DNA of 64,000 bases from an uncultured Lachnospiraceae bacterium. Lineage in GTDB: Bacteria; Bacillota; Clostridia; Lachnospirales; Lachnospiraceae. The translations under genes were made by a program, and so were the position numbers. Shown piece by piece: positions 28,506 to 34,176 of the stretch. Location of the stretch: assembly GCA_910588875.1 (NCBI GenBank), contig CAJURT010000019.1, positions 281 through 64,280 on the forward strand, given 5' to 3'. Positions within the stretch are counted from its first letter, which is position 1, and each line of letters starts with the position of its first letter. The notes below the pieces were generated by a model. It made no database searches. It worked only from the letters and a program-made list of their open reading frames with translations, and was not told the origin of the DNA.

Positions 28506-29957
28506 TCAATGTCTGTGCATCGCTACCTGCTCCAGGCCCAGATTCTTCAGGTTCTCATGCACTTCCCGCTTATCTGCCTGGCCAATCAGAAGGTCTCTGG
28601 CCTTTTTCGCCTCCATCTCGCTCTTGTGTTTGCTCGGGCCTCCCACACAGCCTCCCACACAGACCATGCCTTCCACAAAATCCGCCGGCAGCTTACCCAC
28701 CTTCATCAGAAGCAAGGCCTTCTTACATTCCGCAGCGCCGTTGCATTTCATCACATTGGGGGCAATGTCCTCGTTCATCTCCTTAAAGCACTGCACCACG
28801 GCTGCCGTCACGCCACCGGAATTGCCAAACCGTTTGCCAAATACGGAACTTTCCTGATAGCTGTTCTCCTCCGGCTCCAGTTCCACCCCCTTTGCCCGCA
28901 TCATCGCACGGATCTCCCCAAAGGTCATGGCATAGTCCGCATTTCCAGTGATATTCAAATCCAGCGTCTCGCTCTTCTTGGCAATGCAAGGGCCGATAAA
29001 GACAGTAATCGTCTCCGGATCCTGTTCCTTCAGCATGCGTGATACCCCGCACATCGGAGACACTGTGGTAGACATATTGTCAAGAAGCATGGGGAAATGC
29101 TGTTTAATCATATTTACGAATGCCGGACAGCAGGAGGTAGTCATCTTCTTGCCCTCCTTATAGGCCTCCGCCCATTCCGCCGCCTCAGCCGCCGCAGTCA
29201 GATCCCCTCCGAGACCGACCTCAACCATATCGGCAAAGCCTATCTTTTTCAGGGCTGTCTTCCAGCTTGCCATCGTAATATCTGTCCCAAACTGTCCTTC
29301 CGTGGCCGGGGCAACCATGGCAACCACCCGCTTTCCGGCATTGATCAGCCGGATAATGTCCACCATAAAAGTCTTGGTGCCAATCGCACCAAAGGGGCAG
29401 CTGTGGATACAGGCGCCGCACTGGATGCATTTGCTCTCGTCAATGACGCAGATCCCGTATTCATCGTAGGTAATGGCATCCACCGGGCAGACCTTCTTGC
29501 AGGGGCGTTCCAAATGGGCAATGGCACTGTACGGGCATGCCTGGGCACACTTTCCGCATTCCTTACATTTCCCCGGATCGATATGGGCACGGCTGTCGCC
29601 AATGGTGATGGCGCCAAAATTACAGGAATTCTGGCAGGCCTTTCCCATACAGTTGCGGCAGTTATCCGTGACCACATAAGATGCGATAGGACACTCCTCA
29701 CAAGCCGCCTTAATTACCTGCACCACGTTCATGGAATCCATCCCTACCGGGCACTTCCCCTCCGCCAGACGGATCCTCTGCTTGGTTATCTCACGCTCTT
29801 TATAGATACAGCAGCGAAACTGAGCCTGGGGTCCCGGGAACATCTGATAGGGAAGTTCTTCACGCTTCTCCTCCAGGGTTCCCTCCCATGCCAGCTTTGC
29901 CACCTCGCAAAGTATATCATGCTTAATTTTTAAAATGGTTGCGTCATTTGTTACCAT
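28506..29957 (-). CDS. hydA: [FeFe]-hydrogenase catalytic subunit (monomeric, ferredoxin-type N-terminal clusters)
   Basis: H-cluster motifs TSCCPAFVNMIKQHFP, FIGPCIAKKSE and EGMVCVGGCVGGP. Upstream 4Fe-4S motifs CKECGKCAQACP and CIQCGACIHSCP. Confidence 0.9.
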   Translation of the reverse strand: MVTNDATILKIKHDILCEVAKLAWEGTLEEKREELPYQMFPGPQAQFRCCIYKEREITKQRIRLAEGKCPVGMDSMNVVQVIKAACEECPIASYVVTDNCRNCMGKACQNSCNFGAITIGDSRAHIDPGKCKECGKCAQACPYSAIAHLERPCKKVCPVDAITYDEYGICVIDESKCIQCGACIHSCPFGAIGTKTFMVDIIRLINAGKRVVAMVAPATEGQFGTDITMASWKTALKKIGFADMVEVGLGGDLTAAAEAAEWAEAYKEGKKMTTSCCPAFVNMIKQHFPMLLDNMSTTVSPMCGVSRMLKEQDPETITVFIGPCIAKKSETLDLNITGNADYAMTFGEIRAMMRAKGVELEPEENSYQESSVFGKRFGNSGGVTAAVVQCFKEMNEDIAPNVMKCNGAAECKKALLLMKVGKLPADFVEGMVCVGGCVGGPSKHKSEMEAKKARDLLIGQADKREVHENLKNLGLEQVAMHRH

Positions 29958-30066
29958 GAGTTTTTAACCTCCTCATTATTTTCTCCGCTTCGCGACCTTT
30001 GCGTGGCGCAAAGCTTCTCCGCTTCGCTTCCCTCGGGAAACACCGGTTCTGCTTCGCGCCGTTTGC

Positions 30067-31248
30067 TTAGTAGTAAGTTACTGTAACGGGTTTGCCCAGT
30101 TCTTCTACGGTATGCTTCAGCTGCTCTACCAGGTTCTGGCGGATCCCTAAATCGAAGGGAAGGCCTGGGTTCTGGTAGGCGCTGTTAATCGCCTTGCCTA
30201 CATACATATGAAGTTCTGTGCAGTCCTCAATCAGCATTTTGGCTACCATGGAGGCACCGTTTGGCTTATCCAGTTCCAGGAAGAAATCCTCGGAAACCGT
30301 CTCATTTTTTAGGTAACGCTTCAGAAGCTGGAGCACCCGGTTTAAAGTCAGCACGCCTTCTGTCACCAGGTCAATCCCATCCATGTAGGCAATTGGCGGG
30401 ATCTCCGGGTCTACATAGTCCATGGACACATCCAGAGATTTATTCAATACCCTGGACACAATGGTGGCGCTGGTGCCCCCGCAGACTATCCTCCTGGTAT
30501 CGTCGCCGCCGCCCATCCAGCTATGGACCATCTCATTATCCCGGGAAGCATCCTGTGCCGGGCCGGTCATCAGATGGACTGGCTTTGCATTGATAATCCG
30601 CATACAGGCCACAGTGGTATCGTCACCAGGCCGGTATTCATATAACTCGTCGCAGGCCTGGCAGATAGCGGATGCCAGGCGCATGGCGGAAATGGTCATT
30701 GGGTACTGCTTTACTGCATAGGCGGCAATATCCTCCCATACCCACCCAAAATTCAGCAACCGTCCCACCCCCGCATGGATGGTGCCGTCACTCATCAGGA
30801 TCAGCGCATCACCCTTTTGGACTTTAAAACGGTATTCATTGATCTTCTTGCCTTTGACCTCGCGGATATTCTCAGGGATAGGCATCAGCCTCCCTCCACG
30901 GATAAATATGCAGCCGGGATTGTCAAATTCTACCAGGTAGGCATCCCCGTTATGAAATACCTGAAGGATACTGAAAGTGGCATAAGCCACCTGGCGCACC
31001 TGGCAGATGGGCAAGGTTTCCACGATGGTCTCCACACATTCCTCCAGGGTGGCGCCGTTCAAAAACATGGTGCCCAGGATCTTGGAGGTCAGGGTGGCAA
31101 GGATATTTGCCTTCACGCCGCTTCCCATGCCATCGGCAAGGATCATGATGTTGGAGTCCACAGTCTTTAAAATCTCCACCTTATCCCCGCAAAGGATCTC
31201 CGTGAATTTATTCAGGCTTTTATATGCAACATCTACGGTAACTCCCAT
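30067..31248 (-). CDS. SpoIIE/PP2C-family serine phosphatase with an uncharacterised C-terminal domain
   Basis: 393 aa. PPM motifs CGDKVEIL, ILADGMGSGVKANILA, LILMSDG and DDTTVACMRI. About 160 further residues have no motif I recognise. The start abuts the hydS stop. Confidence 0.8.
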   Translation of the reverse strand: MGVTVDVAYKSLNKFTEILCGDKVEILKTVDSNIMILADGMGSGVKANILATLTSKILGTMFLNGATLEECVETIVETLPICQVRQVAYATFSILQVFHNGDAYLVEFDNPGCIFIRGGRLMPIPENIREVKGKKINEYRFKVQKGDALILMSDGTIHAGVGRLLNFGWVWEDIAAYAVKQYPMTISAMRLASAICQACDELYEYRPGDDTTVACMRIINAKPVHLMTGPAQDASRDNEMVHSWMGGGDDTRRIVCGGTSATIVSRVLNKSLDVSMDYVDPEIPPIAYMDGIDLVTEGVLTLNRVLQLLKRYLKNETVSEDFFLELDKPNGASMVAKMLIEDCTELHMYVGKAINSAYQNPGLPFDLGIRQNLVEQLKHTVEELGKPVTVTYY

Positions 31249-32979
31249 TTACACACCTCCGTTGTCGCCGTCCTCCAACAGAGAATGGCAAAGCTTCGTA
31301 AGGGTGGTCTTGGTTTCTGCCGTCGTCTCGCCCAGAAGCCCGGCAATCTCCTGCGCAACCATCATCTGTTTATGGATGACCCTCTGTGCCAGGTCGATTG
31401 TATCCAGCTTCTTCTCATAGTCGGCACGCGCCTGCTCTTCCTGCTGTGTGATGTCAATAAAGGTGGCCAGCACAGCATTTTCCTTTTCTATGTAAACCAT
31501 ATTCTGGAGGGTGTCCAGATGGTACTCCGGATAGCTTACTTTCTTGCCATGGATATTCTGGCGGGTATCAAATACCCACTGGAAATCCGCAGGGTCAATA
31601 AACTCATACAGATACATTTTCAAAGCCTCGGAGCGGGTCTTCCCGAAATATTTCTCCCCGACTGCGGAATATTCCAGAATCTTCATCTCGTCGTTGACCA
31701 ACAGCACCATGTTGGGCGAGGTCTCCATAACCAGGTTGGAAAGGGACTCGGACTGCTCATACATGAACGGGATGCACATATTGAGTTCTGCCTTTTTCTG
31801 GAACACGGCAATGGCCTTCTCCCGGCAGGTAGGATAACCGCAGGCGCCGCAGTTCAACTCGTCCTCCGGCCTGGTCTTGCCCGTCTTGGAAAGAATGTCC
31901 CGGATCTGGGCTTCCGTTGGGACCGGATCCTTGGGGGAACGGTCTAAGAATATTTTCTCCATCGGGACAGTGGCAATTGCCTGGCTCGTCTCTGCCTCCG
32001 GAACCGGTTCACGGGGAATGGCCTCTTCCATATCCAGCTTTACCTTGAAACGGGAAATGGATTTATCGCTGACAGTGGGGCCCTTGATGCAGCCGCCGTA
32101 GCACATATTCATCTCAATAAAGCAGCCGCTGATCTCCCCTCGGAGCATGCTGTCACAGAGTTCCATGCAATTCTTTTCACCGTGGATGTAAAATTTGCGG
32201 TAGGAATCCGTCTGGGACTGGGTCGCTACCACGGAACTGATGACCCCGCTGCTCACCGGGTAGAGGCGGTTAATCTTCGGGTCTTTCACAAAGGGCATGT
32301 CTTCACAGTCTTCTATGTGGATTTCCGCATCCTGAAGCCAGCGGCTGATGTCATTGAAATTCAGCACAGCATCAATACAGTCTTTATGGCGCTCGTCCTG
32401 GGCTTCCTGCTTTTTGGCAATGCAGGGGCCAAGGAAGACAACCTTTGTGTCCCGGCCTAATTCCTGCTTCAGGAGTTTGCCATGGGCAATCATGGGAGAT
32501 ACTACCGGAGCCATGTAAGGGATAAGCTGGGGGTAGTATTTCTCAATAAGGTCGTTTGCACTGGGGCAGCAGGTAGTGATAATGTTTTCCATCTTGTGTT
32601 CCGTCAGAAGCCGGGCGTATTCGGCGGTTACTAAGGCAGCGCCTTCGGATGTCTCTCGGACGTCAGCAAAACCGAGTTTTAATAAGGCGGCGCGAACCTG
32701 GCCAATGGTATGGTATTTTAAAAGGCCCATATATGCGGGGGCTAAGGAAACTACCACTTTCTCCCCGCGGATTATGTAGCTTTTCACCTTACCCAAATCA
32801 CTGATTAAGGTCTTGGCGGATTGAGGGCATATCTGGAGGCAGCGGCCACAGAGGACGCAGTTCTCCGGCATGATCTCGGCCCGGCCGTTTTTGACCATGA
32901 TGGCCTTGACTTCGCAATTGCGGACGCATTTATAACAGTGGCGGCACTTGGTTGCTTTGAAGTCGATAATTGCTGCCAT
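31249..32979 (-). CDS. hydS: sensory-type [FeFe]-hydrogenase homologue with C-terminal Cys motif and PAS domain (HydS, group C)
   Basis: N-terminal 2x4Fe-4S (CRHCYKCVRNC, CVLCGRCLQICP). H-domain motifs TTCCPSANDLIEKYYP, LGPCIAKKQE and EMNMCYGGCIKGP. These are followed by CGACGYPTCREKAIAVFQKKAELNMC and a PAS-like segment (SPNMVLLVNDEMKILEYSAVGEKYFG...). Confidence 0.85.
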   Translation of the reverse strand: MAAIIDFKATKCRHCYKCVRNCEVKAIMVKNGRAEIMPENCVLCGRCLQICPQSAKTLISDLGKVKSYIIRGEKVVVSLAPAYMGLLKYHTIGQVRAALLKLGFADVRETSEGAALVTAEYARLLTEHKMENIITTCCPSANDLIEKYYPQLIPYMAPVVSPMIAHGKLLKQELGRDTKVVFLGPCIAKKQEAQDERHKDCIDAVLNFNDISRWLQDAEIHIEDCEDMPFVKDPKINRLYPVSSGVISSVVATQSQTDSYRKFYIHGEKNCMELCDSMLRGEISGCFIEMNMCYGGCIKGPTVSDKSISRFKVKLDMEEAIPREPVPEAETSQAIATVPMEKIFLDRSPKDPVPTEAQIRDILSKTGKTRPEDELNCGACGYPTCREKAIAVFQKKAELNMCIPFMYEQSESLSNLVMETSPNMVLLVNDEMKILEYSAVGEKYFGKTRSEALKMYLYEFIDPADFQWVFDTRQNIHGKKVSYPEYHLDTLQNMVYIEKENAVLATFIDITQQEEQARADYEKKLDTIDLAQRVIHKQMMVAQEIAGLLGETTAETKTTLTKLCHSLLEDGDNGGV

Positions 32980-32981
32980 AA

Positions 32982-33221
32982 CTATAGCCTCCCCATGATT
33001 TCTTTGTTGAAGAAGTCTTCGGTGGTTTCAGGTGACAAGGAGAAAAGTTCCCCGTCTATGGTTACGCAGACGCCGTTAACACAGTTGCCGCTGCAGAAGG
33101 CGCCGTTTAGGTCTACTTTGTCTGAGACGTTGTTGGCTTTTACTAGAGTTTGCAGCTTTTGGATGATCTCACGGGATCCCCTTAAATGACATGCACTTCC
33201 GATGCAAATGGATACTTTCAT
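32982..33221 (-). CDS. thioredoxin-like [2Fe-2S] ferredoxin (NuoE/HydC-type fold), first gene of the hydS operon
   Basis: MKVSICIGSACHLRGS...FCSGNCVNGVC (CxxxxC ... CxxxC). Start set to the ATG at 33221, preceded by GGGAGGAAAAATTC. The 182-aa ORF in the track extends upstream only because the GC-rich tandem repeat has no stop codons. Confidence 0.75.
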   Translation of the reverse strand: MKVSICIGSACHLRGSREIIQKLQTLVKANNVSDKVDLNGAFCSGNCVNGVCVTIDGELFSLSPETTEDFFNKEIMGRL

Positions 33222-33300
33222 GAATTTTTCCTCCCAACATGGTGATAGATAGGTTGTAGGTGATGAGGCTCGCCGGGTGATTGGGAGCCGGGTGTTGTAG

Positions 33301-33500
33301 GGTTCGCGCTGTGAAGAGCGGGGCTCGCCTGTGAAGCCGCGGGGGGAGATGGGCTCGCCTGCGAAGCCGCGGGGGGAGATGGGCTCGCCTGTGAAGCCGC
33401 GGGGGGAGATGGGCTCGCCTGCGGCTTCGCGAGGAGAGATGGGCTCGCCTGCGGCTTCGCGAGGGGAGATGGGCTCGCCTGCGGCTTCGCAAGGGGAGCG
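33301..33500. repeat. tandem array of six 30-bp units plus degenerate flanks
   Basis: Units start at 33321, 33351, 33381, 33411, 33441 and 33471. Each has a constant part GGGCTCGCCT...GGGGAGAT. The core is G(T/C)GAAGCCGC in units 1-3 and GCGGCTTCGC, its exact reverse complement, in units 4-6. Confidence 0.9.
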
Positions 33501-33570
33501 GGGTGCTGGAGGGGCCGCAGTGGCGCTCACCTCCGCGATGCTCCGGTTCGCTCACGGGCTTTCGCCCTAT

Positions 33571-33635
33571 GAAAAAGTGCAGAACCAAAATTTCTTATGT
33601 GCGAGCACAACGAAATTTTGGTTCTGCACTTTTTC
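33571..33635. repeat. perfect 24-bp inverted repeat (hairpin) with a sub-hairpin in the loop
   Basis: GAAAAAGTGCAGAACCAAAATTTC (33571-33594) pairs with GAAATTTTGGTTCTGCACTTTTTC (33612-33635). The loop TTATGTGCGAGCACAAC contains TGTGC/GCACA. Confidence 0.9.
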
Positions 33636-33659
33636 GCACTGCTCATTGCTTACGTGGAC

Positions 33660-33688
33660 ATTATCTCACACCGACAAATTTTTATCAA
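33660..33688 (-). promoter_or_regulatory. candidate sigma-A promoter of the hydS operon, implying a ~430-nt leader
   Basis: On the minus strand: TTGATA (33683-33688), 17 nt, GATAAT (33660-33665). It sits downstream of the yajC terminator. Confidence 0.4.
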
Positions 33689-33814
33689 TTGGTTTTTTGT
33701 ATAAATATATGGATTTTTGTCCCATGTGATTTAAATTTACCGTTTTATATTTCCTTTTTTACTAAATTCTTGAAACTGTCTCGCCCTCTCCTCAAAGTGT
33801 ATCCCCTAAAATAT

Positions 33815-33851
33815 AACAACAAAAAGCAGGCAGCTTTTACTCCTGCCTGCT
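33815..33851 (-). terminator. intrinsic terminator after yajC
   Basis: The minus strand reads AGCAGGCAGGAGTAAAAGCTGCCTGCT followed by TTTTTGTTGTT. Confidence 0.75.
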
Positions 33852-33879
33852 CTTACTAGATATCTCTCTCGCCGCACCT

Positions 33880-34176
33880 TTACTGTGGCTTTTCTACCTG
33901 AACGATGGCGGCCTTCTGCATTGGGATACGGCAATGGCGGTCACTGCCGAATTCCACAATCACAGTATCGTCGGTCATGTCGATGATCACGCCGTAAAAC
34001 CCGCTGCTCGTCAGCACTGTGTCGCCAATCGCCACACTGGCCATCAGTTCTTCCCTTTTCTTCTTCTCCTTCTGCTGGGGGCGAATCGCCATGAAGTACA
34101 TCAGAACGATGAAAAAGATAATATAACCGAATAACAGGGACATCGGCATTCCGCCGGCTTGTGTTGCTGTCAACAT
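33880..34176 (-). CDS. yajC: preprotein translocase subunit YajC
   Basis: 98 aa. One TM segment, then RPQQKEKKKREELMASVAIGDTVLTSSGFYGVIIDM...VIVEFG. Confidence 0.85.
   Translation of the reverse strand: MLTATQAGGMPMSLLFGYIIFFIVLMYFMAIRPQQKEKKKREELMASVAIGDTVLTSSGFYGVIIDMTDDTVIVEFGSDRHCRIPMQKAAIVQVEKPQ

What the first reader, a model, noticed from the sequence alone, without database searches (positions are those of the whole stretch)
33301..33500. Six 30-bp tandem repeats in the hydS leader whose 10-bp core is flipped between units 1-3 and units 4-6
Each unit has a constant part (GGGCTCGCCT...GGGGAGAT) flanking a core.
- The core is G(T/C)GAAGCCGC in the first three units.
- The core is GCGGCTTCGC in the last three units.
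- These two cores are exact reverse complements of each other.

The array is therefore a direct repeat and an inverted repeat at the same time. In RNA or single-stranded DNA, the three cores on one side can pair with the three on the other side, with 20-nt bulges between them.

The array sits between a good promoter (33660-33688) and the ferredoxin RBS, so it would be part of a ~430-nt leader.

It is also open in all frames. In the ferredoxin frame it reads (PREAAGEPIS)x3 then (PRGF[TA]GEPIS)x3, so a repeat-containing N-terminal extension starting at the ATG at 33530 cannot be fully excluded.

I know of no described regulatory element of this form.
Basis: seen in the sequence. Interest (0 to 1): 0.62.

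Follow-up and report, generated by a model that had tools for sequence, protein, structure and literature searches.

The report
Strain-variable hairpin repeat in hydS leader
The six 30-bp repeats are real, but they are a strain-variable, species-restricted expansion of one small hairpin in the untranslated leader of a hydrogen-sensor operon, and the "flipped" core is best explained as a replication error that inverted the hairpin loop, not as a new regulatory device.

Summary
In detail: six head-to-tail 30-bp units lie at 33321-33500. Units 1-3 carry G(T/C)GAAGCCGC and units 4-6 carry GCGGCTTCGC.

The genes are on the minus strand, and the array lies inside the 5' UTR of a ferredoxin/HydS/PP2C operon. 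It sits in the C-rich 3' tail of a ~145-nt structured leader module. That module is a sub-threshold relative of Rfam Clostridiales-1. It is multi-copy in Hungatella, Lacrimispora and other Lachnospiraceae genomes, and each copy follows a -10 box directly. About a quarter of the copies carry tandem duplications in or after the module.

Sister species (HydS 95-91% identical) have the same leader but only single GCGAAGCCGCAGGCGAGCC modules. More distant relatives have a ~45-nt leader.

Within the species, assemblies show 3A+3B, 3A+1B and >=4A+1B arrays. The unit was found nowhere else in three large collections.

Each unit is an imperfect hairpin. A and B types differ by inversion of the apical AAGC loop (with its GCG/CGC closing pairs) and one flank base. 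This fits template-switch loop inversion followed by slippage.

I found no evidence of coding, of an invertase switch, or of a conserved regulatory role. A modulatory effect on the mRNA is not excluded.

The parts
33821..33850 (-). Intrinsic terminator of the upstream yajC gene (GCAGGCAG-loop-CTGCCTGC-TTTTT). It marks the end of the preceding transcription unit.
   Evidence: Read from the sequence. yajC RNA contigs end at 33864-33908 in six RNA runs.
33660..33688 (-). Promoter of the fdx-hydS operon: TTGATA, 17 nt, TG-n-GATAAT.
   Evidence: Consensus scan gives 10 of 12 matches with an extended TG. It is conserved in orthologues with 80-95% HydS identity. All 40 family copies have a -10 hexamer ending immediately before the leader.
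33515..33659 (-). Structured leader module (Clostridiales-1-like). It has a conserved 5' 27-mer, closing helix GCAGUG/CACUGC, a 24-bp hairpin (33571-33635) with apical GUGCUCGCAC, GGGC-GAAA-GCCC, and a 3' hairpin.
   Evidence: Rfam RF01699 scores 34.3 bits, below the gathering score of 48 (E 7e-6). My own covariance model R1 scores 162.8 bits, and held-out copies score 64-128 bits. 27 of 45 pairs have compensatory changes in 25 copies.
33411..33500 (-). This is the ancestral orientation.
   Evidence: The first A module is orthologous to single modules in L032, L040 and L059. GCGAAGC is in this orientation in 9 of 28 other family tails, and the reverse orientation is in 0 of 28.
33321..33410 (-). 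The core is inverted relative to A while the flanks stay in direct orientation.
   Evidence: Other alleles carry a single B unit (the CGC form) at the 3' end of the array.
33300..33320 (-). Degenerate 21-nt unit (CGCUCUUCACAGCGCGAACCC) flanking the array on its 3' side.
   Evidence: TRF period-21 row. It is present in all alleles.
33236..33299 (-). Rest of the C-rich tail between the array and the RBS.
   Evidence: The whole tail is C 0.48 and G 0.21. It aligns with the tails of L032 and L040 near the RBS.
33219..33235 (-). RBS GGGAGG (33230-33235) and ATG (33219-33221) of the 79-aa thioredoxin-like [2Fe-2S] ferredoxin.
   Evidence: Gene callers give 79 aa in every orthologous locus.
30067..33221 (-). 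Downstream operon: ferredoxin (32982-33221), sensory [FeFe]-hydrogenase-like HydS with a PAS domain (31249-32979), and a SpoIIE/PP2C phosphatase (30067-31248).
   Evidence: Pfam hits PF01257; PF02906 + PF04060 + PF00989; PF07228.

Best explanation
The array is a non-coding minisatellite (VNTR). It arose in one mouse-gut Lachnospiraceae species by replication slippage of a single ~30-nt hairpin module that already existed in the leader of the fdx-hydS-PP2C operon.

That module (GCGAAGCCGC-AGGCGAGCC plus a C-run) belongs to the C-rich, repeat-prone 3' tail of a ~145-nt promoter-proximal structured leader. The leader is a Clostridiales-1-like RNA module found in many copies in front of unrelated genes in Hungatella, Lacrimispora and other Lachnospiraceae.

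Each unit folds as an imperfect hairpin: CUC-C-CCU-C-GCG [AAGC] CGC-AGG-C-GAG. In one unit at the 3' end of the array, a short template switch during replication inverted the apical loop in place (AAGC to GCUU, within the self-complementary GCG/CGC closing pairs). This created the B type. Later slippage changed the numbers of A and B units independently, giving the 3A+3B allele of this window and 3A+1B or >=4A+1B alleles in other strains.

The array is transcribed as part of the 5' UTR. The complementarity between A and B cores is a by-product of the inversion. It lets the RNA fold into a self-contained rod, but the array has no dedicated, conserved regulatory role. At most it modulates leader stability or folding.

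What is shown: the anatomy, the leader location, the family context, absence in sister species, strain polymorphism, and uniqueness of the unit. What is inferred: the slippage and template-switch mechanisms, and the lack of function.
For: (1) Context. The conserved promoter, the module and the tail architecture recur in 39 loci from other genomes. The module's fold is supported by 27 of 45 covarying pairs and by a CM that recovers held-out copies.
(2) Repeat-prone tails. TRF finds tandem duplications in 10 of 40 copies, with periods of 16-123 nt, including 27 nt x6 in L025 and 29 nt x3.5 in L026.
(3) Ancestral single module. L032 (95.1% HydS), L040 (94.6%) and L059 (91.5%) have GCGAAGCC(G/A)(C/G/A)A(G/A)GCGAGCC once or scattered at the orthologous place and no 30-nt array. 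L011 (91.8%) has only a degenerate trace. L017/L042 (86.5%) and L022 (80.5%) have a ~45-nt leader.
(4) Polymorphism within identical-HydS/YajC assemblies: 3A+3B (WIN, L063, L070), 3A+1B (L064, L066, and runs X34/X37 with linked SNPs), >=4A+1B with 29-nt units (L002, L065), and another A-block in L067.
(5) The flip is confined to the core and the flanks stay direct. It differs from A only by the 4-nt loop inversion plus one T/C. GCTTCGC occurs in 0 of 28 other family tails, against 9 of 28 for GCGAAGC, so B is the derived state.
(6) In-place inversions of mostly 4-nt hairpin loops by template switching are documented, including in bacteria (PMC8794818; IR-spacer inversion in PMC8604942).
(7) The unit junction is absent from ~185,000 species genomes, from the JGI metagenome contigs and from IMG/VR. 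There are no foreign flanks inside the array in 12 DNA metagenomes (and X34/X37).
(8) The array is in RNA: contigs contiguous with fdx/hydS cover it, up to 33525 (X31) and 33562 (X26).
(9) The predicted P(unpaired) of the SD is 0.12 for 1A, 3A, 6A, 1A+1B, 4A+1B and 3A+3B alike.
Against: Every allele resolved at its 3' end keeps at least one B unit there, next to A units (L067 ends inside the array and L068 lacks it). One A:B helix of 12-13 bp is therefore always possible, which could reflect selection rather than history.

GCGAAGC-type modules recur in one orientation in many family tails, which hints that tail modules may have an RNA-level role.

L040 and L059 carry a loosely similar C-rich segment (CCCACGCGTCTCCACA) where WIN has its B unit. 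B could descend from that segment and have been 'corrected' to complementarity, rather than arising by loop inversion within an A unit.

The closing arms available for the switch are short: 3 perfect bp, or 9 of 11 including mismatches.

Copy numbers rest on short-read assemblies and k=31 contigs, and no long reads were available. No TSS mapping or expression comparison between alleles exists. No RNA contig covers the first ~90 nt of the predicted leader.
Confidence: 0.7

Rival explanations
1. Functional RNA structure. The A and B cores pair in the leader RNA into a three-step rod. The rod regulates the operon, for example by controlling mRNA stability, RNase access, transcription pausing or translation. 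Copy number and A:B ratio would tune expression of the H2-sensing module, as in a contingency locus.
For: The MFE and centroid folds pair units 6:1, 5:2 and 4:3. The leader folds far better than shuffles (z = -9.15). At least one B unit is retained 3' of the A units in every allele resolved at that end. The array is transcribed.
Against: The low energy follows automatically from any inverted repeat. The array is absent in four sister species with the same operon and leader. The number of possible helices varies from 1 to 3 between strains. Two of the three B units in this allele carry a C.A mismatch against all A cores in the sense RNA. No compensatory changes were seen. SD accessibility is unchanged in all modelled configurations. 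No U-tract follows the helices, so no intrinsic terminator is formed.
Confidence: 0.12
2. Multi-site binding platform. The oriented GCGAAGC hairpins embedded in C-rich, G-poor RNA would be functional parts of the leader family's tail. They could be repeated sites for an RNA-binding protein (KH-type or other) or a Rho-loading (rut-like) tract. Tandem amplification would increase valency. The B units would be defective or neutral copies.
For: Tails of 28 other copies are C-rich (C 0.3-0.5, G 0.15-0.25). GCGAAGC is the most recurrent specific 7-mer (9 of 28 tails) and is always in one orientation. Tandem repetition of tail modules recurs in unrelated loci. GCGAAGC is enriched in the window (15 observed against 7.3 expected; 0 of 100 shuffles reach 15), including two AGCGAAGCGGAGAA motifs and one GCGAAGCAGAA in the PP2C-hydA spacer.
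Against: Tail sequences are poorly conserved between orthologous leaders. Many family copies have short tails or tails without the motif. Base composition alone predicts about a 2.7:1 orientation bias, so 9:0 is only suggestive. The motif also occurs in the module's own 3' hairpin (GGAGCGAAGCGGAA in many copies), so tail copies can be explained as decaying partial duplications of the module. No binding protein is known.
Confidence: 0.12
3. B units do not come from loop inversion of an A unit. They would descend from a different ancestral tail segment (as in L040/L059, CCCACGCGTCTCCACA) that became complementary to the neighbouring A core through quasipalindrome correction or point mutations, and was then amplified.
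For: MAFFT aligns the WIN segment CCCCCGCGGCTTCACAGG with the L040 segment CCCACGCGTCTCCACAAAAG (about 14 of 18 positions). L059 has a similar segment. The degenerate 3' flanking unit (CTCTTCACAGCG) is B-like and is present in all alleles.
Against: The similarity lies mostly in the C-run and the GCG shared by A and B. The B-specific part matches at only 5 of 7 positions. The B flanks (AUCUCCCCCC ... AGGCGAGCCC) are the A flanks in direct orientation at 19 of 20 positions. This is expected if B is a modified A unit and not an unrelated segment. The single-B alleles carry the exact 10 of 10 reverse complement.
Confidence: 0.1
4. The repeats encode a repeat-containing N-terminal extension of the ferredoxin, or another peptide on either strand.
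For: All six frames are open across the array. A 182-aa in-frame ORF starts at GTG 33530.
Against: The unit length is a multiple of three and GC is ~70%, so open frames are expected. The true start has GGGAGG 8 nt upstream. All homologues are 79 aa. The extension adds no Pfam domain. The GTG lies inside the covarying RNA core. The array is absent or of different length in sister species and strains, and includes 29-nt units that would shift the frame.
Confidence: 0.01
5. A recombinase-driven phase-variable inversion switch, or an assembly artefact.
For: Both core orientations are present. Short-read contigs break in the array.
Against: The inverted segment is only 4-10 bp and there is no recombinase gene nearby. 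No contig shows the alternative orientation at a given unit within one sample. The identical 3+3 array occurs in three independent assemblies, and compatible contig graphs occur in seven metagenomes.
Confidence: 0.02

Closest known systems
Clostridiales-1 RNA motif (Rfam RF01699; Weinberg et al. 2010, PMC2864571)
   Same: The ~145 nt upstream of the array align end-to-end to the model (closing helix, long hairpin with conserved GUGCUYGCAC apex, 3' hairpin). It is found in gut Clostridiales/Lachnospiraceae, is multi-copy, and has unknown function. It is listed in the paper as a probable RNA that is not cis-regulatory.
   Different: It scores 34.3 bits against a gathering score of 48. None of 18 related loci reaches the gathering score. 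The model's middle hairpin is replaced by GGGC-GAA(A)-GCCC. This variant always follows a -10 box directly and precedes a gene. The 30-nt array itself is not part of the motif and lies in its variable tail.
Bacterial intergenic VNTRs/minisatellites, e.g. MIRU-VNTR loci of Mycobacterium tuberculosis (from my own knowledge)
   Same: Head-to-tail units of tens of bp lie in transcribed intergenic DNA of operons. Copy number differs between strains and is generated by slippage.
   Different: MIRUs are dispersed at dozens of loci, and many are translationally coupled mini-ORFs. This unit occurs at a single locus, is a hairpin, and has two core orientations.
Modular structured repeats with a variable number of internal modules: BOX elements of Streptococcus pneumoniae (boxA-boxB(n)-boxC) and E. 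coli BIMEs (REP units in alternating orientation) (from my own knowledge)
   Same: They have a conserved structured head plus a variable number of short hairpin-forming modules. They are co-transcribed with neighbouring genes. BIMEs combine direct and inverted arrangement within one cluster.
   Different: There is no sequence relationship. In BIMEs whole palindromic units alternate in orientation, whereas here only the apical 4-10 nt is inverted and the two types form two blocks. The amplified module here is not dispersed.
Template-switch loop inversions in hairpins (Monttinen & Loytynoja 2022, PMC8794818; IR-spacer inversion, PMC8604942; small hairpin-loop inversions of chloroplast spacers, from my own knowledge)
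   Same: A short loop, typically 4 nt, is inverted in place between complementary stem arms. The stem and flanks stay unchanged and the change appears as a cluster of substitutions.
   Different: Here the inverted copy was subsequently amplified in tandem next to non-inverted copies. This turns a silent loop flip into long-range complementarity within one RNA.
Strain-variable tandem tails of Clostridiales-1-like modules noted earlier in this scan (e1-3703602, e1-2003126, e1-5201077, e1-4139175)
   Same: They involve the same kind of module in Lachnospiraceae leaders, followed by locally amplified, strain-variable repeats. One case has an inverted copy.
   Different: Those repeats are 19-133 nt and are mostly partial copies of the module. 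None is described with a core-only flip. They are AI notes, only partly re-tested here.

Membership tests
Clostridiales-1 RNA (RF01699), for the leader module that carries the array | Score at or above Rfam's gathering threshold (48 bits) | tested here: not met
   34.3 bits, E 7e-6. 0 of 18 related loci reach the gathering score.
Clostridiales-1 RNA (RF01699), for the leader module that carries the array | Architecture: closing helix enclosing a long hairpin, an internal hairpin and a 3' hairpin | tested here: inconclusive
   The cmscan alignment spans model positions 1-166, but the middle hairpin (about positions 76-127) is deleted. My own alignment gives a 4-way junction with 27 of 45 covarying pairs.
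Clostridiales-1 RNA (RF01699), for the leader module that carries the array | Multi-copy occurrence in gut Clostridiales next to unrelated genes | tested here: met
   39 loci, up to 4 per genome. Held-out copies score 64-128 bits with R1. Depth at 33636-33662 reaches 613x against a ~10x baseline in a metagenome.
Bacterial VNTR / minisatellite | Head-to-tail repeats with a unit of 10-100 bp | tested here: met
   30-bp period, 5.4-6 copies, 92% matches.
Bacterial VNTR / minisatellite | Copy-number polymorphism among strains of one species | tested here: met
   Tail lengths of 293 and 234 nt (a third, 332 nt, includes a 100-N gap). Unit strings are 3A+3B, 3A+1B and >=4A+1B in assemblies with identical YajC and HydS. 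The 1B junction is also seen in runs X34 and X37. Caveat: these are short-read assemblies.
Bacterial VNTR / minisatellite | Absent or single-copy in sister species | tested here: met
   L032, L040, L011/L048 and L059.
Template-switch hairpin-loop inversion | The inverted segment is bounded by complementary arms and the flanks keep direct orientation | tested here: met
   GCG[AAGC]CGC against GCG[GCTT]CGC. The unit folds as a 9-bp interrupted hairpin. The flanks are identical except for one T/C.
Template-switch hairpin-loop inversion | Polarity established by an outgroup | tested here: met
   The A orientation is present at the orthologous place in L032, L040 and L059. The reverse orientation is in 0 of 28 other tails.
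Template-switch hairpin-loop inversion | Direct observation of the event (parent and child sequences differing only by the inversion) | not testable with these tools
   No A-only allele, or allele with AAGC at the B position, was recovered.
Invertase-type phase-variation switch | Invertible segment flanked by recombinase sites, a recombinase nearby, and both orientations in one population | tested here: not met
   The segment is 4-10 bp. No recombinase lies among the neighbouring ORFs. No alternative orientation is seen at a given unit in 12 DNA metagenomes (plus X34/X37).
Dispersed repeat (REP/BIME, BOX, MITE), for the 30-nt unit | Many copies at unrelated loci | tested here: not met
   0 further copies in the window. 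0 matches in genome contigs, metagenome contigs and viral contigs. No foreign flanks in the metagenome contigs.
Riboswitch / attenuator | Conservation across orthologous leaders, and an expression platform (terminator or RBS sequestration) coupled to the structure | tested here: not met
   The array is absent in orthologues. No U-tract follows the helices. SD accessibility is unchanged by the array configuration. No Rfam riboswitch hit was found.
Protein-coding repeat (N-terminal extension) | Conserved ORF with a start signal, with homologues carrying the extension | tested here: not met
   Homologues are 79 aa. The start is GTG without an SD and lies inside the RNA core. 29-nt units occur in other alleles.

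The most novel reading that the evidence does not exclude
The C-rich tail with its oriented GCGAAGC hairpin modules could be a working part of the Clostridiales-1-like promoter-proximal leader. For example, it could be a multivalent landing pad for an RNA-binding protein or for Rho, or it could work with the structured head to set read-through or mRNA lifetime. In this species, rapid gain, loss and flipping of modules would then act as a contingency locus that sets the level of the H2-sensor (HydS-PP2C) circuit strain by strain. The B units would create a tunable intramolecular clamp.
Probability: 0.1. Interest if true: 0.6.

Novelty: new variant of a known kind. Interest (0 to 1): 0.3.

Why it matters
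For this locus, the result removes a tempting candidate "new riboregulator" of a hydrogen-sensing operon. It replaces it with a documented evolutionary history: a leader module was acquired, one tail hairpin was amplified, one loop was inverted, and the blocks were then resized.

More generally, it is a clean natural example of a template-switch loop inversion that was captured and amplified in a tandem array. This shows how mutation alone can create extensive RNA self-complementarity without selection for structure.

It also adds to the evidence that GC-rich tandem repeats in Lachnospiraceae 5' UTRs are usually tails of one dispersed leader family. That family always follows a -10 box directly and shows strong covariation, but its function is still unknown. 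The family, rather than this array, is the open question worth experiments.

On the practical side, the array is a ready-made VNTR marker for strain typing of this mouse-gut species. It is also a predictable break point for short-read assemblies.

Tried and rejected
I could not scan the organism's own genome for further copies and used the window, three public collections and metagenome contigs as proxies.
- Unit-junction pattern: no match in genome contigs, metagenome contigs or viral contigs.
- The array's unique 3' flank was not found in JGI metagenomes, so the species is absent there. The leader 27-mer is not in viral contigs.
- The Rfam gathering scan of 18 family loci gave no Clostridiales-1 call, only unrelated lysine and TPP riboswitches and a tRNA.
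- I considered and rejected these readings: coding extension, invertase switch, dispersed REP/BOX-like unit, riboswitch/attenuator, and assembly artefact. The reasons are given under rival explanations and membership tests.
- A possible natural deletion allele (L068, with the leader start joined to the array's 3' flank) is not supported by any joint in 12 DNA metagenomes. It lies at a MAG contig end, so I treat it as unreliable.
- RNA contigs could not give a TSS. None of six RNA runs covers 33563-33860 (X34 and X37, which do cover it, behave like DNA or total nucleic acid). Only Logan contigs were available, not raw reads.
- RBS sequestration by the C-rich units (anti-SD-like CCUC/CUCC) was modelled. 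SD pairing probability did not depend on the array.
Full report
OBSERVATION

The plus strand at 33321-33500 holds six head-to-tail 30-bp units. TRF reports period 30, 92% matches and score 235. The constant 11-mer GGGCTCGCCTG occurs six times at exact 30-bp spacing and nowhere else in the window. Units 1-3 carry GTGAAGCCGC, GCGAAGCCGC and GTGAAGCCGC. Units 4-6 carry GCGGCTTCGC, the exact reverse complement of the unit 2 core. A degenerate 21-bp unit precedes the array at 33300-33320. The description is therefore correct, with three small corrections:
- Only one of the three "forward" cores is an exact complement of units 4-6.
- The upstream in-frame start at 33530 is GTG, not ATG.
- The genes are on the minus strand, so the transcript reads units 6 to 1.

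Below I call the GCGAAGCCGC form (transcript sense; units 4-6) type A, and the GCGGCUUC(A/G)C form (units 1-3) type B.

SURROUNDINGS

On the minus strand the order is as follows:
- yajC (stop at 33880);
- its terminator (33850-33821);
- a promoter, TTGATA-17-TGnGATAAT (33688-33660);
- a 145-nt structured segment (33659-33515) that includes a perfect 24-bp hairpin;
- the array;
- a C-rich spacer;
- GGGAGG and ATG (33221) of a 79-aa thioredoxin-like [2Fe-2S] ferredoxin;
- HydS (sensory [FeFe]-hydrogenase-like with a PAS domain);
- a SpoIIE/PP2C phosphatase.

Rfam gives one notable sub-threshold hit, Clostridiales-1 (RF01699), at 33643-33516(-). It scores 34.3 bits against a gathering score of 48, aligned over the full model but without its middle hairpin.

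ORTHOLOGOUS LEADERS

I fetched loci through the HydS protein and later through a DNA pattern, and ranked them by HydS identity. The promoter is conserved in all of them.
- Relatives at 86.5% (L017/L042) and 80.5% (L022) have only a ~45-nt leader.
- Relatives at 95.1% (L032), 94.6% (L040), 91.8% (L011/L048) and 91.5% (L059) have the long structured leader. The hairpin arms differ by compensatory changes. None has the 30-nt array.
- At the orthologous place, L032, L040 and L059 carry single or scattered modules. For example, L059 reads CCCAAGCGAAGCCGCAGGCGAGCCTCCCC.

The long leader is therefore a derived acquisition. The A-type module is ancestral within it, and the six-unit array is specific to the window's species.

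POLYMORPHISM WITHIN THE SPECIES

Contigs that encode identical HydS or YajC proteins show several arrays:
- 3A+3B in the window and in two independent MAGs (L063, L001/L070);
- 3A+1B in L064 and L066;
- >=4A+1B with 29-nt units in L002 and L065;
- a further A-block variant in L067.

The 1B junction and its linked SNPs reappear in runs X34 and X37. The 3+3 contig graph appears in X1, X2, X3, X14, X15 and X19. In the alleles resolved at the 3' end of the array (WIN, L063, L070, L064, L066, L065, L002), the B units are 3'-terminal and the A units are 5'. Single-B alleles have the CGC form, which is the exact complement of A. The CAC variant occurs only in the expanded B block. In the sense RNA it gives a C.A mismatch against every A core.

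UNIQUENESS OF THE UNIT, COMMONNESS OF THE MODULE

The unit junction AGGCGAGCCCATCTCYCCYCGCG has no match in ~185,000 species genomes, in JGI metagenome contigs, or in IMG/VR. Metagenome contigs show no foreign flanks inside the array.

By contrast, the first 27 nt of the leader (in a degenerate pattern) hit 39 loci in Hungatella, Lacrimispora, Enterocloster and other Lachnospiraceae, with up to four copies per genome. These lie in front of unrelated genes: the hydS operon, and ORFs that look from their first residues like rubrerythrin, clpX, plsY, a zapA-like gene and cytidylate-kinase-like genes. I read those identities by eye and did not test them.

In all 40 copies a -10 hexamer (at least 5 of 6 matches) ends immediately before the conserved start, and 29 of 40 have the extended TG.

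An alignment of 25 cores shows three things:
- the 5' segment, the apical loop and GGGCGAAGCCCGUGAG are nearly invariant;
- the arms of the long hairpin are hypervariable but complementary;
- the consensus is a four-way junction, with 27 of 45 pairs kept through double changes.

A covariance model built from this alignment scores the window copy at 162.8 bits and eight held-out copies at 64-128 bits. It finds no second copy in the window and nothing in the short-leader relatives. None of 18 loci reaches Rfam's gathering score for Clostridiales-1. I therefore call the module Clostridiales-1-like, not a member of that family.

The 33636-33662 segment reaches up to 613x depth against a ~10x baseline in gut metagenomes. 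This confirms high copy number for the module, but not for the array.

TAILS OF THE FAMILY

Downstream of the closing helix, the copies have variable, C-rich and G-poor tails. TRF finds tandem duplications in or after 10 of the 40 copies, with periods of 16-123 nt. These include 27 nt x6 (L025), 29 nt x3.5 (L026) and 79 nt x4.8 (L048). The L048 duplication is absent from L011, which has the same HydS, so it is another strain-variable case.

GCGAAGC is the most recurrent specific 7-mer. It is in 9 of 28 other tails, and its reverse complement is in none. The same heptamer sits in the module's own 3' hairpin in many copies (GGAGCGAAGCGGAA). In L024, L060, L035 and L048 the duplicated unit visibly includes that hairpin. 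I infer that tail modules are decaying partial duplications of the module's 3' end. The window's unit (GCGAAGC-CGCAG-GCGAGCC) would be one such descendant, with L041's GCGAAGCGTCAGCGAGCC as an intermediate form.

THE FLIP

Each unit folds as an imperfect hairpin, CUC-C-CCU-C-GCG[AAGC]CGC-AGG-C-GAG, with -9.9 kcal/mol for A and -7.2 for B. A and B share their flanks in direct orientation. They differ only by AAGC versus GCUU inside the self-complementary GCG/CGC pairs, and by one T/C in the 5' arm. A reverse complement of the whole hairpin would have moved the arm mismatches, and it did not.

This is the signature of an in-place loop inversion by short template switching. The process is documented for hairpins, mostly with 4-nt loops, including bacterial cases (PMC8794818; IR-spacer inversion in PMC8604942). 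Polarity comes from the outgroups, which are all A-type. Slippage then resized the A and B blocks.

A weaker alternative is that B descends from a different C-rich ancestral segment, seen in L040 and L059, that was "corrected" to complementarity. This would also involve template switching.

TRANSCRIPTION AND FOLDING

RNA-run contigs contiguous with fdx/hydS extend into the array in all runs, through all of it to 33525 in X31, and to 33562 in X26. The array is therefore in the mRNA, and the TSS lies upstream of it. No RNA contig covers the 24-bp hairpin or the promoter-proximal 90 nt. This could reflect RNase III-type processing, library bias against a perfect hairpin, or low depth. Contigs cannot decide between these.

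The whole leader folds far better than shuffles (z = -9.15), with A6:B1, A5:B2 and A4:B3 nested. That outcome is automatic for inverted repeats. In models with 1A, 3A, 6A, 1A+1B, 4A+1B and 3A+3B, the SD pairing probability is identical (P unpaired 0.12). The array therefore behaves as a self-contained domain. No U-tract follows any A:B helix.

VERDICT

The finding is real and is correctly placed in the leader. It is best explained as a species-restricted, strain-variable minisatellite, derived from one tail hairpin of a dispersed Clostridiales-1-like leader module. A fossil loop inversion accounts for the "flipped" core (confidence about 0.7).

A regulatory RNA rod (0.12) or a multivalent binding platform (0.12) are not excluded, but they lack conservation support. 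I reject the coding, invertase-switch, dispersed-repeat and artefact readings.

Earlier notes of this scan describe the same module family and similar variable tails in other genomes. I used them as leads only and re-derived the family here.

All population data are short-read assemblies or k=31 contigs. No experimental TSS or expression data exist.

Noticed in passing
window 33563-33660 (-), especially the hairpin at 33571-33635: In six RNA runs the contigs cover fdx/hydS, the array and up to 33525-33562, but never the 24-bp perfect hairpin or the first ~90 nt of the predicted leader. DNA runs assemble straight through it. Possible causes are RNase III-type processing at the hairpin base, library bias, or low depth.
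   Followed up: partly
window 29957-30066 (-), PP2C-hydA spacer: The spacer holds three GCGAAGC copies. Two occur as AGCGAAGCGGAGAA, which resembles the loop region of the leader module's 3' hairpin (GGAGCGAAGCGGAA). The spacer is 109 nt here but 36 nt in the 92% relative (L011, 3566 to 3603). This species may therefore have gained module-derived fragments there too. GCGAAGC is enriched in the window (15 against 7.3 expected).
   Followed up: partly
L048:161-541 vs L011: These are two assemblies with the same HydS (91.84% to the window). L048 has a 79-nt x4.8 tandem duplication of the module's 3' part (P4 plus closing strand plus tail start). L011 has a single copy. This is another strain-variable tail in the same operon leader of the sister species.
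   Followed up: partly
L068:1985-2061 (GCA_948774515.1, contig end): The leader start ...GCAATGAGCAGTG is joined directly to GAGCCCCGCTCTTCACAG, the array's 3' flank. That would be a ~330-nt deletion of the module core and the array, or a MAG misassembly. No supporting joint was found in 12 DNA metagenomes.
   Followed up: partly
window 33561-33630, run X10: One contig (depth 11.8) skips 68 nt, which is exactly the long hairpin. This suggests a hairpin-less variant of this copy or of a paralogous copy in that community.
   Followed up: no
window 33660-33700 (-) and L017, L022, L032, L040, L042, L048, L059: The promoter region AATTGATAAnAATnTGTCnnTnTGAGATAAT is conserved across HydS identities of 80-100%, beyond what the -35 and -10 boxes need. 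It may hold an operator for the H2/redox circuit.
   Followed up: no
L042:4639-4665 / L017 (86.5% relative): The ~45-nt short leader still matches the module's first 27 nt at about 20 of 27 positions (GTTCTCATAGGCAACGAGTAAAGCAAA). The short leader may therefore be a deletion derivative of the module rather than the pre-insertion state. The 80.5% relative (L022) shows no such similarity.
   Followed up: no
window 33636-33662; runs X1, X2, X3, X10, X14, X19: Contig depth spikes 5- to 60-fold over the flanks (up to 613x), with several different foreign flanks at 33632/33635 and 33664. The module's 5' segment (TAATGTCCACGTAAGCAATGAGCAGTGCG) is shared by many loci and organisms in mouse-gut communities.
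   Followed up: partly
L024-L062 (39 loci): The leader family looks like a promoter-plus-leader cassette. It has an extended -10 with no good -35 (best match 2-4 of 6 in most non-hydS copies), the structured head, a C-rich tail, and then an RBS. The P4 region shows GA/AG-rich internal loops that could be a kink-turn-like motif. The function is unknown.
   Followed up: no
window 33321-33500 (+): The template (+) strand of the array is G-rich, with G6 and G3 runs in every B unit. The transcript is C-rich. G-quadruplex or R-loop effects on transcription were not evaluated.
   Followed up: no
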